Assembly: GCA_035642735.1 (NCBI GenBank)
Contig: DASQRV010000234.1
Location: 1-30,476 of the forward strand
Origin: Steroidobacteraceae bacterium
GTDB lineage: Bacteria > Pseudomonadota > Gammaproteobacteria > Steroidobacterales > Steroidobacteraceae
Direction: 5' to 3'
Length of the DNA stretch: 30,476 nt
Shown here: one piece after another, positions 17,984 through 24,494 of the stretch
Layout: every line of letters begins with the position of its first letter
Numbering within the stretch: the stretch's first letter is position 1
Made by a program: the position numbers and the translations under genes
Notes under the pieces: generated by a model
What the model was told of the DNA's origin: nothing
The model's input: the letters and a program-made list of their open reading frames with translations, nothing else
The model's database searches: none

Positions 17984-18403
17984 ATGAAGTACCTGCACAC
18001 CATGGTTCGTGTAACCAACCTTGAGGCATCGTTGAAATTCTATTGCGACGCTCTCGGCCTCGAGGAGCTCTCGCGCAAGGACTACCCGCAGGGCCGTTAC
18101 ACGCTGGTGTTCCTCGCGGCCCCCGGCGATGAGAGCGCGCAGGTCGAGCTCACCCACAACTGGGACCCCGAGAAATACACCGGCGGGCGCAACTTCGGGC
18201 ATCTCGCCTACGCGGTGGAGGACATCTACGCCACCTGCCAGCGCCTCGCCGATCACGGCGTCACCATCCTGCGGCCGCCGCGCGACGGGCACATGGCCTT
18301 CGTGCGCTCGCCCGACAACATTTCGATCGAGCTGCTGCAGAAGGGCGCATCGCTGCCGGCCGCCGAGCCGTGGAAGTCCATGCCCAACACCGGCAGCTGG
18401 TAG
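17984..18403 (+). CDS. gloA: Lactoylglutathione lyase (glyoxalase I, VOC fold)
   Basis: Start [10 protein letters not shown] (ATG 17984). Metal-ligand pattern H5, [23 protein letters not shown]. Confidence 0.87.
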
Positions 18404-21049: not shown

Positions 21050-22021
21050 GTGCGGGAGCGGCGGCTGCGGGCCATCGCGACGATGATCGCCGCGGTCGCC
21101 GTATTCTCCCTGATGGATGCACTCCTGAAGCTGCTGGCGGCGGACTACCCGCCCATGCAGGTCGCGGCGCTGCGCGGTGCGACCTCGCTCCCCTTCACAC
21201 TGCTGCCGGTGCTGCTGCGCGGGCGGCTGCAGGACCTCAAGCCGCGGCGCTGGCCCATGCACCTGCTGCGAGGGTTGCTCATGCTGCTGGTGCTCGGCGG
21301 CTTCATCTACGCGGTGCGCGTGCTGTCGCTCGCCAACGCCTACGCGGTGTTCCTGTCGGCGCCGCTCATCGTGGCGGCGCTGTCGGTGCCACTGCTCGGG
21401 GAACGGATCGACTGGCGCAACTGGATTGCCATCATGGTCGGCCTCGTTGGCGTGCTCACCATGCTGCGCCCGAGCGCCTCGGGCCTGAGCACTCTCGGGA
21501 CCCTGGCCGCGCTGGTGGGGGCCTGCGCCTACGCTCTGAGCGCCATCGCGGTACGGGTGTTGACGCGCAGCGACACGACCGTCAGCGTGGTCTTCTGGGC
21601 CGTCGGCCTGATGACGCTGTTCGCCACGGCGATTTCCATCCCCGTCTGGGTGCCGATCGAGCACACGCACTGGAAATGGCTCGTCGGCCTCGGCGTGCTG
21701 GCGGCGATCGGGCAGTACCTGCTCACCGAGGCTTTCCGCTCGGCACCCCCCTCGGTCGTTACACCCTTCGAGTACACCGCGCTCCTCTGGGGAGCCGCCA
21801 TCGACCGCCTGGTGTGGAACGTGCTCCCCTCGGCACGTGTGTGTTTGGGCGGCGGGCTCGTGATCGCGACCGGGCTGTATCTCATCTGGCACCAGCGCCG
21901 GCTTGCAGGCGGCGAATCCGCGCGACAGACATGGCAGCCGGCGGCGGAGAAGGGCAGAATGTTGGGCCATTCGCCGACAGTCGAAGTTGTCGCTCGCAAA
22001 CAAGAGGAAGACCGACCATGA
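21050..22021 (+). CDS. DMT/EamA-family transporter
   Basis: About 10 hydrophobic segments in two repeats (AVFLSAPLIVAALSVPLLGERI; PSVVTPFEYTALLW). GTG start 3 nt after the ndvB stop. Confidence 0.9.
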   Translation: MRERRLRAIATMIAAVAVFSLMDALLKLLAADYPPMQVAALRGATSLPFTLLPVLLRGRLQDLKPRRWPMHLLRGLLMLLVLGGFIYAVRVLSLANAYAVFLSAPLIVAALSVPLLGERIDWRNWIAIMVGLVGVLTMLRPSASGLSTLGTLAALVGACAYALSAIAVRVLTRSDTTVSVVFWAVGLMTLFATAISIPVWVPIEHTHWKWLVGLGVLAAIGQYLLTEAFRSAPPSVVTPFEYTALLWGAAIDRLVWNVLPSARVCLGGGLVIATGLYLIWHQRRLAGGESARQTWQPAAEKGRMLGHSPTVEVVARKQEEDRP

Positions 22022-23250
22022 GCAACGCCGAAGTCCTGGGACGATTCGTCTGGCACGAGTTGCTGACAACCGACACCGCGGCCGCCGCCGCGTTCTACCC
22101 CAAGGTCCTGCCCTGGCGGACGGCACCCTCCAGCATGCCCGGCTACACCATCTGGATGGCCGGACAAACCCAGATCGGCGGCCTCATGGCACTGCCGGCC
22201 GAAGCCGGCGCGACACCGCCACACTGGCTCGTCTATGTCGGAACACCGAATGTCGACGCCACCTGCTCACAGGCTCAAGGGCTCGGCGCGCGCATCGTCA
22301 AGGCTCCTGCTGACATTCCGAACGTCGGCCGCTTCGCCGTCCTCACCGACCCACAGGGTGCAACGTTCGCACTGTTCACCCCCGGGGCCGGGCCCCCTCC
22401 CGGTGCGCCACCTGCGCAGGGCGGTTTCTCCTGGCACGAGCTCGCGACCACTGACGTCGCGGCTGCGCTGCGCTTCTACGGTCAGTTGTTCGGCTGGACC
22501 AAGGGTCCCGGGCACGACATGGGCGCCATGGGCGTGTACCAGATCTTCCAGCACGGTGGCGACCAGGTCGGTGGCATTGTCAACGTGCAGGGCCCCTCGA
22601 CCGCACCCTCGTGGTTGAGCTATGTGAACGTCGCCGAAGCCAGCCGCGCGGTCGCGGCCGCCAAGGCTGGCGGCGGCCGGCTCCTGCACGGACCGATGGA
22701 GGTTCCCGGCGGGAGCTGGATCGCCATGATGATGGACCCGCAGGGTGGCGCCTTCGCAGTGCAGGAAGCGCCGCGTGCCGCGAGCCAGAAACCGGCTGCC
22801 GCGTCGAAGCCGGTGGCGGCCGCCAAGCCGCCGGCGGCACCGAAGCCCGCCACCGCTCCCGCGACGCCCGCAGCCGTGAAGTCCGCGCCTGCCAAGCCCG
22901 CCGCTGCAAAGCCCGCAACCCCTGCGGCAAGCGTGGCCAAGGTCGTCGTGGCGGCGAAGGTGGCGAAGGTCGTCGTGGCCGCGAAAGTGGCGAAGACAGC
23001 CAGGAAGGCGGCGAAGAAAGCCAAGAAGGCGGCAAGGAAAGTGCGCCGGGCCGGGAGAAAGGTGGCGCGCAAAGTGCGTCGGGCCGGCAGAAAAACAGCG
23101 CGCAAGGCCGCCCGCCCGGGCGTCCGGCGCGCCGCCCGCAAAACCGCGCGCAAGACGGCGCGGCGCGTGCGCCGCAGCGCACGAGGAGCGGCGCGGGGCG
23201 TGAGACGGGCAGCGCGACGCGTGAGACGCGCGGCGCGCCGGCGGCGCTGA
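22018..23250 (+). CDS. Two-domain VOC/glyoxalase-family protein (CFP32-like) fused to a Pro/Ala/Lys linker and a K/R-rich histone-H1/protamine-like tail (410 aa)
   Basis: True start ATG 22018 after GAGGA RBS. Two repeats: GRFVWHELLTTD...FY...W...DPQGATFAL and GFSWHELATTD...FYGQLFGW...DPQGGAFAV. The tail follows in frame to TGA 23248-23250. Confidence 0.87.
   Translation: MSNAEVLGRFVWHELLTTDTAAAAAFYPKVLPWRTAPSSMPGYTIWMAGQTQIGGLMALPAEAGATPPHWLVYVGTPNVDATCSQAQGLGARIVKAPADIPNVGRFAVLTDPQGATFALFTPGAGPPPGAPPAQGGFSWHELATTDVAAALRFYGQLFGWTKGPGHDMGAMGVYQIFQHGGDQVGGIVNVQGPSTAPSWLSYVNVAEASRAVAAAKAGGGRLLHGPMEVPGGSWIAMMMDPQGGAFAVQEAPRAASQKPAAASKPVAAAKPPAAPKPATAPATPAAVKSAPAKPAAAKPATPAASVAKVVVAAKVAKVVVAAKVAKTARKAAKKAKKAARKVRRAGRKVARKVRRAGRKTARKAARPGVRRAARKTARKTARRVRRSARGAARGVRRAARRVRRAARRRR
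22936..23247 (+). repeat. Low-complexity basic repeats: (AKVVVAAKV)x2, (RKVRRAG)x2, RKTA and VRRAAR repeats
   Basis: Direct translation. 45 of the last 89 residues are K or R, with no D or E. Confidence 0.85.
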
Positions 23251-23266
23251 CACTCGATCCGACGAA

Positions 23267-23299
23267 GCGCACCGCGCACGCCCGGCGTGCGCGGTGCGC
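23267..23299. terminator. Perfect 15-bp GC hairpin between convergent genes (terminator- or REP-like)
   Basis: GCGCACCGCGCACGC-ccg-GCGTGCGCGGTGCGC with no U-tract on either side. Confidence 0.6.
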
Positions 23300-23310
23300 A
23301 CGTCAACTCC

Positions 23311-24285
23311 TCAGAGCCGCACCAGCGGCCGGCCGAAGTTGCCCCCCTGCATGACGAGCAGCAGATGGGCCGGCGCGTTGACGAGTCCTTCGACCACGTG
23401 ATCCTTGGTGGCGATGCGACCGGCCCCGTACCAGGCGATCGCGTCGCGCAGGAATTCCGAGCGGCGGTGCTCGTAGTGGTGCAGGTCCACGCTCAGGAGC
23501 TGCAGGCTTCCGGGCGCATAGCCGGCGCGGGCGAGCAATGCCTCCGGCTGCGCGGGCTTGACGCTGTTCTGCACGATGCGGGCGCCGCGCGCGAGGATCC
23601 CGCTCGTCACCACCCTCTCGAGCAACTCCCCGCCAACATTGTCGAAGTAGATGTCGACTCCGTGCGGCGCCAGCTGCCGCAACCGCGCCTCCAGGTTCTC
23701 GGCGGCGTAGTTGATACAGCCCGACAGCCGCGCATGCCGCGTCACCCAGTCGCACTTCTCGTAGGTACCGGCCATGCCGATCGCCCGTGCGCCCTTGAGC
23801 TGGGCGATCTGGCCGGCCATGGCGCCGGCGGCGTTGGCCGCCGTGGATACGAGCACGGTCTCATCGGGTCGCAGCCGTGCCAGATGCAGCAGGCCGAAGT
23901 AAGCCGCCATGCCGGGCGCGCCGAGGACTCCGAGCGCCGTCGAGGCGGGTGTCTGTCCAGGATGCAACAGCCACGCGTGATGTCCCTCGGAGACGCACAG
24001 CTGCTGCAGGCCGCAGTCGAGCACGACGAGGCTCCCGACGCCGAAGACGTCGTGGCGGGAGTCGATCACTTCGCCGACGCCGCGTGCCGGGACCACATCG
24101 CCGGGGCGTGGAAACTCACCGCTCAGGATGTCGGACGCACAGCGGAAAGGATCGACCGCCAGCCACAGAGCGCGCGCCAGGAAGGAGCCGTTGGTGAGGG
24201 GGGGTCGCTCGCCTTCGATCAGCTCGACGTCGCACGCTCGCGCTGGCGGACGCTTGATCCTGACCTGCAGGTTGTGCACGGTCAT
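23311..24285 (-). CDS. NADP-dependent oxidoreductase (prostaglandin reductase / YncB-CurA-like MDR), divergent
   Basis: Start MTVHNLQ (ATG 24285). LWLAVDP, ALGVLGAPGMAAYFGLL, GQIAQLKGAR, EKCDW, GVDIYFDNVGGELL, EGLVNAP, GNFGRPLV. Confidence 0.83.
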   Translation of the reverse strand: MTVHNLQVRIKRPPARACDVELIEGERPPLTNGSFLARALWLAVDPFRCASDILSGEFPRPGDVVPARGVGEVIDSRHDVFGVGSLVVLDCGLQQLCVSEGHHAWLLHPGQTPASTALGVLGAPGMAAYFGLLHLARLRPDETVLVSTAANAAGAMAGQIAQLKGARAIGMAGTYEKCDWVTRHARLSGCINYAAENLEARLRQLAPHGVDIYFDNVGGELLERVVTSGILARGARIVQNSVKPAQPEALLARAGYAPGSLQLLSVDLHHYEHRRSEFLRDAIAWYGAGRIATKDHVVEGLVNAPAHLLLVMQGGNFGRPLVRL

Positions 24286-24494
24286 TGTCCATCCGCATCG
24301 GCCGCCCGCCGCTGCTCGGCGGCCTGGCGGTAGGCGGCGTCGATCTGCTGGCGGACCTGGTCCTGCGCCGCCTGTGCCTGCGCCGCCTGCTGCGCTGCCG
24401 ATTCGGCCGCGGTCCCCGCGCCGACCCCGGTCCCGGCGACACCGCAACCGGCCAGGGGCAACGCCACGACGAGCAATGCCCAAAACCGTTCCAT
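24282..24494 (-). CDS. Small hypothetical lipoprotein (70 aa)
   Basis: Signal II with lipobox LAGC at residues 14-17, then a Gly-rich segment and an A/Q-rich helix. Its stop overlaps the next ATG (ATGA). Confidence 0.75.
   Translation of the reverse strand: MERFWALLVVALPLAGCGVAGTGVGAGTAAESAAQQAAQAQAAQDQVRQQIDAAYRQAAEQRRAADADGQ

What the first reader, a model, noticed from the sequence alone, without database searches (positions are those of the whole stretch)
22018..23250. Glyoxalase-fold (VOC) protein fused to a histone-H1/protamine-like polycationic tail
Seen: after two complete VOC domains (about 250 aa) the frame continues through a Pro/Ala/Lys linker (KPAAASKPVAAAKPPAAPKP...), (AKVVVAAKV)x2, and a tail where 45 of the last 89 residues are K or R. 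There is no acidic residue in the last ~158 aa, and the protein ends RRAARRRR. Established: such AK/PAK-rich and RK-rich disordered tails are the DNA-compacting parts of histone H1 and of bacterial H1-like proteins (Chlamydia Hc1/Hc2, Pseudomonas AlgP, the mycobacterial HupB tail). VOC domains bind metals and small electrophiles or antibiotics. I do not know of a characterised VOC-H1 fusion. Inference: a nucleoid- or polyphosphate-tethered detoxifier or sensor that protects DNA from electrophiles or DNA-damaging drugs, or a condensate-forming protein. A second VOC gene (gloA) lies upstream in the same co-oriented run.
Basis: partly seen in the sequence, partly recalled or inferred. Interest (0 to 1): 0.75.

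Follow-up and report, generated by a model that had tools for sequence, protein, structure and literature searches.

The report
VOC protein with conserved polycationic tail
A real, conserved gene of soil Steroidobacteraceae (also seen in some Acidobacteriota and Gemmatimonadota) joins a glyoxalase-fold small-molecule-binding protein to a 160-residue, acid-free tail of charge +56 that most likely holds it on DNA or another cellular polyanion; no study of it turned up.

Summary
Residues 1-250 are two VOC domains, closest to M. tuberculosis Rv0577 (PDB 3OXH). Residues 251-410 contain no Asp or Glu (K24, R32, net +56).

The tail is not an artefact. GC3 stays in frame, and dN/dS is about 0.1-0.4 against eight close orthologs. 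More than 100 homologs and every complete Steroidobacteraceae ortholog keep a basic tail of 84-184 aa. The tail sequences do not align, but their composition is conserved. About half of the 150 nearest 50%-identity clusters are tailed. Most of these form one clade that also holds Acidobacteriota- and Gemmatimonadota-labelled genes.

AlphaFold predicts a disordered Pro/Ala/Lys linker followed by two Arg-rich amphipathic helices. That helical pattern is special to this sub-lineage.

The VOC core lacks the canonical glyoxalase-I metal ligands; invariant Trp residues sit at the ligand positions. Within the family, glyoxalase I lies upstream and a CurA-type enone reductase downstream.

Best reading (inference): a polyanion-tethered small-molecule scavenger, with the nucleoid the most likely target.

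This protein was not noted before by the scan. Other enzymes with H1-like tails were noted on other DNA, so it belongs to a recurrent, undescribed pattern.

The parts
22002..22010 (+). Shine-Dalgarno-like AAGAGGAAG, 7 nt before the ATG
   Evidence: Read from the sequence.
22018..23250 (+). Whole gene: two-domain VOC protein with polycationic tail (410 aa plus stop). The ATG overlaps the TGA of the upstream EamA gene (ATGA at 22018-22021).
   Evidence: The N-terminus MSNAE/D..GRFVWHEL is conserved in orthologs.
22042..22383 (+). VOC domain 1 (residues 9-122)
   Evidence: Pfam PF00903 residues 13-118. AF2 pLDDT 94-98 with beta-alpha-beta-beta-beta modules. Aligns to Rv0577 residues 162-276.
22384..22419 (+). 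Pro/Gly-rich inter-domain linker (residues 123-134)
   Evidence: Lower pLDDT block and no secondary structure. Variable columns in A1.
22420..22767 (+). VOC domain 2 (residues 135-250)
   Evidence: Second Pfam stretch. Aligns to Rv0577 residues 27-150 and to AbxF. AF2 pLDDT 94-98.
22768..22935 (+). Pro/Ala/Lys-rich flexible linker (residues 251-306, net +8, six KPxx units), predicted disordered
   Evidence: pLDDT 41-74 with no secondary structure. 18- and 15-nt in-frame repeats. Length polymorphism among 96-98% identical homologs of 400, 410 and 415 aa.
22936..22998 (+). (AKVVVAAKV)x2 Val-rich repeat (residues 307-327)
   Evidence: 27-nt tandem repeat, 2.7 copies, 89% match; translation.
22957..23106 (+). 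Predicted helix 1 (residues 314-363), cationic and amphipathic, includes an 11-residue repeat RKVARKVRRAG
   Evidence: AF2 helix with pLDDT 74-88, above 80 from residue 330. K/R periodicity 3.6-3.67, resultant 0.47 against 0.13 for shuffles. 33-nt repeat.
23116..23244 (+). Predicted helix 2 (residues 367-409), Arg-rich and amphipathic, VRRAARR heptads, ends RRAARRRR
   Evidence: AF2; periodicity. The C-terminal motif is conserved in more than 100 homologs.
23267..23299 (.). Perfect 15-bp GC hairpin between the convergent VOC and reductase genes; candidate bidirectional terminator without a T-tract
   Evidence: RNA fold -40.3 kcal/mol, z = -4.07. Not called by the T-tract terminator scan.
17984..18403 (+). 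Linked gloA (glyoxalase I). It lies close upstream of the tailed VOC gene in most family members. Here it is 3.6 kb upstream, because a GH17-GT2 gene and an EamA gene lie in between.
   Evidence: TIGR00068 113 bits against a cut-off of 120, with best hits all lactoylglutathione lyase; ligands visible; synteny.
23311..24291 (-). Linked convergent NADPH-dependent CurA/PTGR1-type enone (alkenal) reductase
   Evidence: Pfam ADH_N_2 and ADH_zinc_N. NCBIfam CurA 207 bits, below cut-off. Found directly downstream in many orthologous loci.

Best explanation
This is a genuine cytoplasmic protein made of two parts.

Part 1 (residues 1-250) is a two-domain VOC module of the Rv0577/Rv0911/KbpA/AbxF subfamily. 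Its pockets are lined by invariant Trp and Tyr residues instead of the glyoxalase-I metal ligands. It therefore more likely binds or transforms a small organic molecule without the classical metal centre.

Part 2 (residues 251-410) is a selected, acid-free tail of charge +56. It consists of a flexible Pro/Ala/Lys linker, a Val-rich repeat and two Arg-rich amphipathic helices.

The tail most likely acts as a sequence-independent electrostatic anchor that concentrates the VOC module on a cellular polyanion. Nucleoid DNA is the most likely target; RNA or polyphosphate granules are possible. The roughly 60-residue linker would let the module sweep the surrounding volume. There the VOC module would intercept or sequester reactive carbonyls of the methylglyoxal type, or DNA-directed drugs, before they damage the nucleic acid.

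Shown here: the gene is real, translated and constrained; the fold; the tail's composition and its wide conservation; the synteny with gloA and an enone reductase. Inferred: polyanion binding, which polyanion, and the chemistry of the VOC module.
For: Real and selected:
- The frame stays open, and GC3 is 0.79-0.83 through the tail.
- dN/dS is 0.09-0.37 for the tail and 0.06-0.125 for the core against eight orthologs.
- All DNA repeats in the tail have periods that are multiples of 3.

Conserved by composition, not sequence:
- More than 100 homologs of 370-442 aa keep the tail.
- Orthologs at 49-90% core identity in Steroidobacteraceae keep acid-poor tails of 84-184 aa, with K:R ranging from 55:4 to 17:37.
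- 69 of the 150 nearest 50%-identity representatives are tailed (median 128 aa, 36% K+R, net +42).
- 62 of those 69 lie in one clade with SH-aLRT 94.
- Acidobacteriota- and Gemmatimonadota-labelled genes are tailed too.

Fold:
- AF2 pLDDT is 94-98 for the core. Foldseek matches 3OXH at TM 0.85 and AbxF at 0.82. The PDB sequence search gives E = 8e-34 to Rv0577.

Precedent for the tail's function:
- The AlgP tail (net +55, KPAA repeats) binds DNA and localises to polyphosphate granules (PMC9239181).
- The PAKKA tail of M. smegmatis Ku modulates DNA binding (PMC3553676).

Link to carbonyl stress:
- gloA lies upstream and a CurA-type reductase downstream across the family.
[quoted passage not shown] Rv0911's homology to this protein rests on the literature; it was not tested here.
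Against: - No binding or localisation data exist for any member.
- The tail matches no Pfam or PDB family.
- In this ortholog the basic residues follow a helical amphipathic pattern, which could also suit anionic membranes.
- The canonical VOC metal site is not conserved, so a glyoxalase-type reaction is unlikely and the substrate is unknown.
- The synteny with gloA is confined to one bacterial family and may be inherited gene order. Loci from other phyla show no shared neighbours.
- The assembled 77% of this genome holds no other protein with such a tail, so there is no sign of a shared targeting system.
Confidence: 0.45

Rival explanations
1. The anchoring principle is the same, but the physiological target is polyphosphate granules or RNA/ribonucleoprotein condensates, not the nucleoid. 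The VOC module would be a client of a stress-induced condensate.
For: AlgP, with a tail of nearly the same net charge, is enriched on polyphosphate granules (PMC9239181). The H1-like disordered region of PhaF was reported as an RNA-binding region (PMC12818456 abstract). The distal tail is Arg-rich like arginine-rich RNA-binding motifs (the resemblance is my own knowledge).
Against: Sequence alone cannot separate DNA, RNA and polyphosphate. There are no polyphosphate or RNA-metabolism genes next to the gene.
Confidence: 0.2
2. The two cationic amphipathic helices bind the anionic inner-membrane surface, or a lipid or PHA granule surface. They would place the VOC module at the membrane, next to the co-transcribed EamA exporter.
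For: K/R periodicity is 3.6-3.67, and there is an 11-residue repeat of the kind seen in surface-binding helices (the comparison is my own knowledge). The gene's start overlaps the stop of an EamA transporter gene.
Against: Amphipathic periodicity is not a family property: the median z is -0.4 over 69 tails, and many tails are Pro-rich. The apolar face is only Ala, Val, Gly and Thr. The EamA gene is a sub-lineage insertion between gloA and the VOC gene.
Confidence: 0.1
3. The protein is mainly a nucleoid-associated or regulatory protein. The VOC module would be a ligand sensor or a protein-binding module, like the kinase-binding KbpA. It would not be a detoxifying enzyme.
For: The best NCBIfam hit is KbpA at 93.6 bits. 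The 3OXH entry is titled 'kinase inhibitor homolog'. The canonical catalytic metal ligands are absent. The tail charge equals that of architectural proteins such as AlgP.
Against: The KbpA score is far below the 250-bit cut-off. No Ser/Thr kinase gene was found among the neighbouring genes scanned. The core's invariant residues are shared by tailed and tail-less relatives, which argues for one conserved pocket function.
Confidence: 0.12
4. The tail is a neutral low-complexity expansion produced by replication slippage in GC-rich DNA. It is tolerated and has no function.
For: The tail DNA is a patchwork of short tandem repeats. Its length varies even among 96-98% identical homologs. It evolves 3-5 times faster than the core at the protein level.
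Against: Acidic residues are excluded almost completely over 84-184 residues in dozens of lineages. dN/dS is well below 1. A basic C-terminus is retained in every lineage. The tail persists down to about 40% core identity and across phyla.
Confidence: 0.05

Closest known systems
Mycobacterium tuberculosis Rv0577 (CFP32/TB27.3, PDB 3OXH) and its paralogue Rv0911
   Same: Same two-domain VOC architecture. Sequence E = 8e-34 and Foldseek TM 0.85. Rv0911 is genetically linked to methylglyoxal tolerance and a lower mutation rate.
   Different: The mycobacterial proteins are about 260 aa and have no basic tail. Only 29% identity to Rv0577. Rv0911's relation to this protein was taken from the literature and not tested here.
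Streptomyces KbpA (AfsK-binding protein, NCBIfam NF053614)
   Same: Best NCBIfam match, covering residues 62-248.
   Different: Scores 93.6 bits against a 250-bit cut-off, so this is not an equivalog. KbpA has no tail, and no kinase gene was seen in the neighbourhood.
AbxF (PDB 8STB, 9JT3, 8EO9), spiroketal-forming enzyme of anthrabenzoxocinone biosynthesis
   Same: Second-best structural and sequence relative. It shows that this VOC subfamily can act on aromatic polyketides.
   Different: 24% identity, no tail, and no biosynthetic gene cluster context here.
Pseudomonas AlgP and PhaF C-terminal KPAA-repeat domains
   Same: Acid-free Pro/Ala/Lys repeats and a net charge of about +55. The domain is appended to an unrelated N-terminal module and anchors it to DNA or polyphosphate (PMC9239181).
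   Different: No sequence homology. Here only the proximal 56 residues are KPxx-like. The distal 83 residues are Arg-rich and predicted helical. The attached module is a VOC protein, not a helical or phasin domain.
Lys-rich PAKKA tail of Mycobacterium smegmatis Ku (and similar tails of actinobacterial HupB and TopA)
   Same: A low-complexity basic tail on a folded protein that modulates DNA binding (PMC3553676; HupB and TopA from my own knowledge).
   Different: Those proteins already act on DNA. Here the folded part is a small-molecule-binding fold with no known nucleic-acid function.
Glyoxalase I (GloA), including the copy in this window
   Same: Same VOC superfamily fold, and genetically linked in Steroidobacteraceae.
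   Different: The GloA ligands H5, E54, H72 and E116 are not matched: H5, H72 and E116 align to W12, W70 and A118 of the tailed protein, and the E54 position also holds no conserved ligand. There is no TIGR00068 hit.

Membership tests
VOC (vicinal oxygen chelate) superfamily, Pfam PF00903/PF18029 | Paired beta-alpha-beta-beta-beta modules forming a cupped sheet | tested here: met
   Pfam E = 1.3e-15 in two stretches, above the gathering score. The AF2 secondary structure shows four such modules at pLDDT 94-98. Foldseek hits are all VOC proteins.
Rv0577-type two-domain VOC proteins (COG3324-like) | Two tandem VOC domains in one chain of about 250 aa, with W-x-E-L / D-P-x-G motifs, homologous to 3OXH | tested here: met
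   phmmer E = 8.2e-34 with both domains aligned. TM 0.85 over 246 columns. Motifs are invariant in A1 and A2.
Glyoxalase I (lactoylglutathione lyase) | Four conserved metal ligands (His, Glu, His, Glu) and a match to TIGR00068 | tested here: not met
   No TIGR00068 hit. No invariant His in 80 relatives. In the hhalign against the window's own GloA, the ligand positions fall on W12, W70 and A118. That alignment has only 28% probability, so the mapping is approximate.
KbpA (AfsK-binding protein, NF053614) | Score above the curated equivalog cut-off | tested here: not met
   93.6 bits against 250.
Linker histone H1/H5 | Winged-helix globular domain (PF00538) plus a Lys/Ala/Pro-rich disordered C-terminal domain | tested here: not met
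   No linker-histone or HC2 Pfam hit for the whole protein or the tail at E <= 10. Only residues 251-306 resemble an H1 C-terminal domain in composition.
AlgP/PhaF-type KPAA-repeat polycationic tails (a functional class, not a homology family) | Long acid-free tract of tandem KPAA-like units, predicted disordered, strongly positive | tested here: inconclusive
   Acid-free over 160 aa and net +56. Six KPxx units in a disordered linker. More than half of the charge lies in Arg-rich predicted helices. Orthologs in other genera have AlgP-like AKKA/KPA tails.
AlgP/PhaF-type KPAA-repeat polycationic tails | Binds DNA and/or polyphosphate through the tail | not testable with these tools
   Needs EMSA, co-sedimentation or microscopy.
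Bleomycin-resistance (binding) proteins | Metal-free VOC dimer that sequesters bleomycin-family drugs | not testable with these tools
   Only the N-terminal Ble-like_N motif matches (PF22677, 33.5 bits against 24.5). The Trp/Tyr-rich invariant set is compatible with this class but proves nothing.

The most novel reading that the evidence does not exclude
Soil bacteria of several phyla station a metal-independent VOC scavenger directly on their chromatin through an H1/protamine-like tail. This would give a DNA-proximal shield against methylglyoxal-type electrophiles or DNA-targeting antibiotics. It would be one instance of a general, undescribed strategy in which ordinary enzymes are recruited to the nucleoid or to polyphosphate condensates by evolvable polycationic tails.
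Probability: 0.3. Interest if true: 0.7.

Novelty: new variant of a known kind. Interest (0 to 1): 0.5.

Why it matters
If the tail does anchor the VOC module to DNA or to a polyanionic condensate, this would be a simple and widespread way of placing protective chemistry where damage matters. The fused clade holds dozens of 50%-identity clusters across at least three soil phyla. That would add an enzymatic layer to bacterial chromatin beyond architectural proteins and Dps.

It would also give the poorly understood Rv0577/Rv0911 VOC subfamily a testable functional context. That subfamily is relevant to methylglyoxal tolerance and mutation rate in M. tuberculosis.

The tail's turnover between Lys-rich coil and Arg-rich helix while the charge is kept makes it a natural test case for composition-level selection on disordered regions.

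If the tail proves to be only a solubility or neutral feature, the gene is an ordinary VOC protein.

Tried and rejected
- Frameshift or assembly artefact: rejected on GC3, dN/dS, and more than 100 independent contigs with the same architecture.
- The opposite-strand and off-frame ORFs over the tail are ordinary high-GC shadows. The off-frame third-position GC is 0.73-0.74 against 0.81 in frame.
- Searching with the tail alone in five related genomes found only the query itself, not even the orthologous tails. Pfam and PDB searches of the tail gave only noise. Whether other proteins of related genomes carry such tails could therefore not be settled this way.
- The own-genome scan found only weak candidates: a DksA with a basic N-terminal extension and a small basic coiled-coil ORF. 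A shared 'tail system' in this genome is therefore not supported, although the assembly is only 77% complete.
- Fusion from a separate downstream H1-like gene: the one candidate, downstream of a tail-less Gemmatimonadota homolog (L089), is a secreted PEP-CTERM-type protein and not a split tail.
- Amphipathic helix as the conserved principle: rejected for the family as a whole.
- Conserved gene context outside Steroidobacteraceae: none found.
- The listing of cluster members gave almost no taxonomy.
- Literature searches for a VOC or glyoxalase protein with an H1-like tail found nothing relevant. The Rv0577 structure paper is not in the library.
Full report
**Observation**

The ORF at window:22018-23250(+) reads through to a 410-aa protein. 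Pfam places two VOC domains (PF00903, PF18029, PF22677, each in two stretches) within residues 9-250. After E250 there is no Asp or Glu. The 160-residue tail has K24, R32, A54, P14 and V18, with net charge +56. The folded part has net charge -4 and pI 5.8.

The tail-coding DNA is a patchwork of tandem repeats with periods 18, 15, 27, 21, 33 and 21 nt, all multiples of three. A Shine-Dalgarno-like AAGAGGAAG precedes the ATG. The ATG overlaps the stop codon of an upstream EamA transporter gene. A perfect 15-bp GC hairpin follows the stop codon.

**Is the tail real?**

- Third-position GC stays at 0.79-0.83 through the tail in this frame, against 0.73-0.74 in the other two frames.
- A search of 5.8 billion proteins returned more than 100 homologs of 370-442 aa, some named 'VOC family protein [Steroidobacteraceae bacterium]'. 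Nearly all have an acid-free tail of 130-165 aa that ends in RRAARRRR or a close variant.
- Against eight orthologs with 76-90% core identity, dN/dS is 0.06-0.125 for the VOC core and 0.09-0.37 for the tail. The tail changes 3-5 times faster at the protein level but is clearly constrained. dS is saturated, so these values are rough.

**How widely is it conserved, and what exactly is conserved?**

- In 121 genomes of the same family, 61 genomes (25 of 40 genera) have a match.
- ORFs extracted from 11 of those genomes and from 80 GTDB species loci show that every complete Steroidobacteraceae ortholog (49-90% core identity) has a tail of 84-184 aa. One probable exception (L078) has an acidic, Arg-rich extension.
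- The tails do not align between genera. The K:R ratio runs from 55:4 to 17:37. What persists is near-total exclusion of acidic residues, about 36% K+R, a Pro/Ala-rich proximal part and a basic C-terminus.
- In an exhaustive HMMER search of 1.84 billion cluster representatives, 69 of the 150 best are tailed (46-268 aa, median 128, median net charge +42) and 65 are tail-less proteins of about 255 aa.
- On a tree of the VOC cores, 62 of the 69 tailed representatives fall in one clade of 68 rows (SH-aLRT 94). The label needs 12 changes on the tree, against 46.7 for shuffled labels.
- Genes from MAGs labelled Acidobacteriota (L080, L087), Vicinamibacteria (L088) and Gemmatimonadota (L090) are tailed, and L087 and L088 group with tailed representatives of that clade. 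Other Acidobacteriota, Thermoanaerobaculia and Gemmatimonadota homologs are tail-less. At least five gains or losses are forced by well-supported branches.
- The fusion is thus old, mostly inherited, occasionally lost or regained, and not confined to one phylum. MAG taxonomic labels carry the usual binning caveat.

**Anatomy**

AlphaFold2 with an 80-sequence alignment gives the VOC core at pLDDT 94-98. Residues 251-312 are disordered (pLDDT 41-74). Two long helices follow, 314-363 and 367-409, separated by a Pro-Gly turn; pLDDT is 74 at residues 321-330 and 81-88 after that.

Within both helices the K/R residues show 3.6-3.67 periodicity (resultant 0.47-0.49 against 0.13 for shuffles). Each helix therefore has a cationic face and an Ala/Val/Gly face. 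The repeats are VRRAARR heptads and an 11-residue unit RKVARKVRRAG. This amphipathic pattern is special to the window's sub-lineage. Over the 69 tailed representatives the median z-score is -0.4, and many tails are Pro-rich coils. The family-level constraint is therefore charge and composition, not a particular structure. That fits non-specific electrostatic binding to a polyanion better than a stereospecific interface or a membrane-inserting helix.

**The VOC module**

- The closest solved relative is M. tuberculosis Rv0577 (3OXH; E = 8e-34; TM 0.85). Next is AbxF, a spiroketal-forming enzyme of an aromatic polyketide pathway.
- The best NCBIfam model is the kinase-binding KbpA, but at 93.6 bits against a cut-off of 250.
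- Across 80 tailed and tail-less relatives, the invariant residues are W12, D111, P112, W139, F153, W160, Y174, Y202 and D240. No His is invariant.
- In a profile alignment to the window's own canonical GloA (ligands H5, E54, H72, E116), the ligand positions fall on W12, W70 and A118. That alignment has low probability, so the mapping is approximate.
- The module is therefore not a glyoxalase I. It looks like a metal-independent binder or catalyst with aromatic-lined pockets.
- The literature links the subfamily to methylglyoxal. An Rv0911 transposon mutant of M. tuberculosis is methylglyoxal-sensitive and shows a 10-fold higher rifampicin-resistance mutation frequency (bioRxiv 10.1101/2024.11.03.621721). 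Rv0911 has two VOC domains and belongs to the SigG regulon; sigG is induced by DNA-damaging agents (PMC3776920). I did not test Rv0911's homology to this protein myself.

**Context**

In most Steroidobacteraceae loci the order is as follows:

- gloA lies upstream on the same strand. It is 28 nt away in some loci. In others it is about 360-700 nt away, and in the one such locus checked (L051) a YiiD_C thioesterase gene fills the gap.
- The tailed VOC gene comes next.
- A convergent CurA/PTGR1-type NADPH enone reductase often follows.
- An alpha/beta hydrolase comes last.

In the window's sub-lineage a GH17-GT2 glucan-synthase-like gene and the EamA gene are inserted between gloA and the VOC gene. 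Two reactive-carbonyl detoxifying enzymes next to the gene are suggestive. The linkage is confined to one family, however, and the loci from other phyla share no neighbours.

**Mechanism**

The best-supported reading is a polyanion-tethered small-molecule scavenger. The tail's charge and composition match the AlgP C-terminal domain (net +55), which binds DNA and localises to polyphosphate granules (PMC9239181). It also resembles the Lys-rich tail that modulates DNA binding by M. smegmatis Ku (PMC3553676). The H1-like region of PhaF was recently reported to bind RNA (PMC12818456 abstract). DNA, RNA and polyphosphate therefore cannot be told apart from sequence.

I estimate about 0.6 that the tail is a polyanion anchor. 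I put the whole statement, including the protective role, at 0.45. The rivals are a polyphosphate or RNA target, membrane binding, an architectural or regulatory role, and neutral expansion.

**Novelty**

No paper describing a VOC or glyoxalase-fold protein with such a tail was found. Databases call it only 'VOC family protein'. The scan had not seen this protein before. It has noted H1-like tails on other enzymes in other genomes: Bcp peroxiredoxin, adenylate kinase, PPDK and aconitase (AI notes, unchecked). This is therefore a new variant of a known kind, namely bacterial proteins with H1-like polycationic tails, and part of a recurrent, undescribed pattern. It is moderately interesting on its own and more so as one instance of that pattern.

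Noticed in passing
window:18419-21046 (+) and 21050-22021 (+): An 875-aa fusion of a GH17-like glycosidase N-terminal part with a membrane GT2 processive glycosyltransferase (beta-glucan-synthase-like), followed by an EamA transporter gene. In this sub-lineage the pair sits as an insertion between gloA and the tailed VOC gene; in other genera gloA lies much closer to the VOC gene.
   Followed up: partly
L004, L010, L077, L084, L092 (C-termini of the tailed VOC orthologs); also P0138: In one group of orthologs the basic tail ends in a well-conserved extra motif, FAxARRFAxKQADSLLKRLRGKKxR. It contains an acidic residue and looks like a short amphipathic helix, so it may be a specific docking element added to the generic tail.
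   Followed up: no
window:23267-23299: A perfect 15-bp GC-only hairpin (-40 kcal/mol, z = -4.1) without a T-tract lies between the convergent VOC and reductase genes. It could be a bidirectional terminator or a REP-like element.
   Followed up: partly
L051:3399-3875 (+): In the one locus checked (L051), a YiiD_C-type hotdog thioesterase gene (Pfam E = 8e-45) lies between gloA and the tailed VOC gene. It is not found at that place in the window.
   Followed up: partly
G000 contig C108:6039-7154 (-): The genome's DksA homolog appears to carry a moderately basic, Pro/Lys/Ala-rich N-terminal extension (MPAKRPAQKSTKGKKAAS...). The start codon was not verified.
   Followed up: no
L089:4868-5593 (+): Downstream of a tail-less Gemmatimonadota VOC homolog lies a secreted protein with a KPAAKP-rich region, a long Pro-rich stretch and a PEP-CTERM-like C-terminus. 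It is unrelated to the VOC tail.
   Followed up: partly
P0153, P0167, P0252 (representatives): A few members nested in the tailed clade carry long non-basic C-terminal extensions instead, up to 540 aa. These may be other fusions or gene-calling read-through.
   Followed up: no
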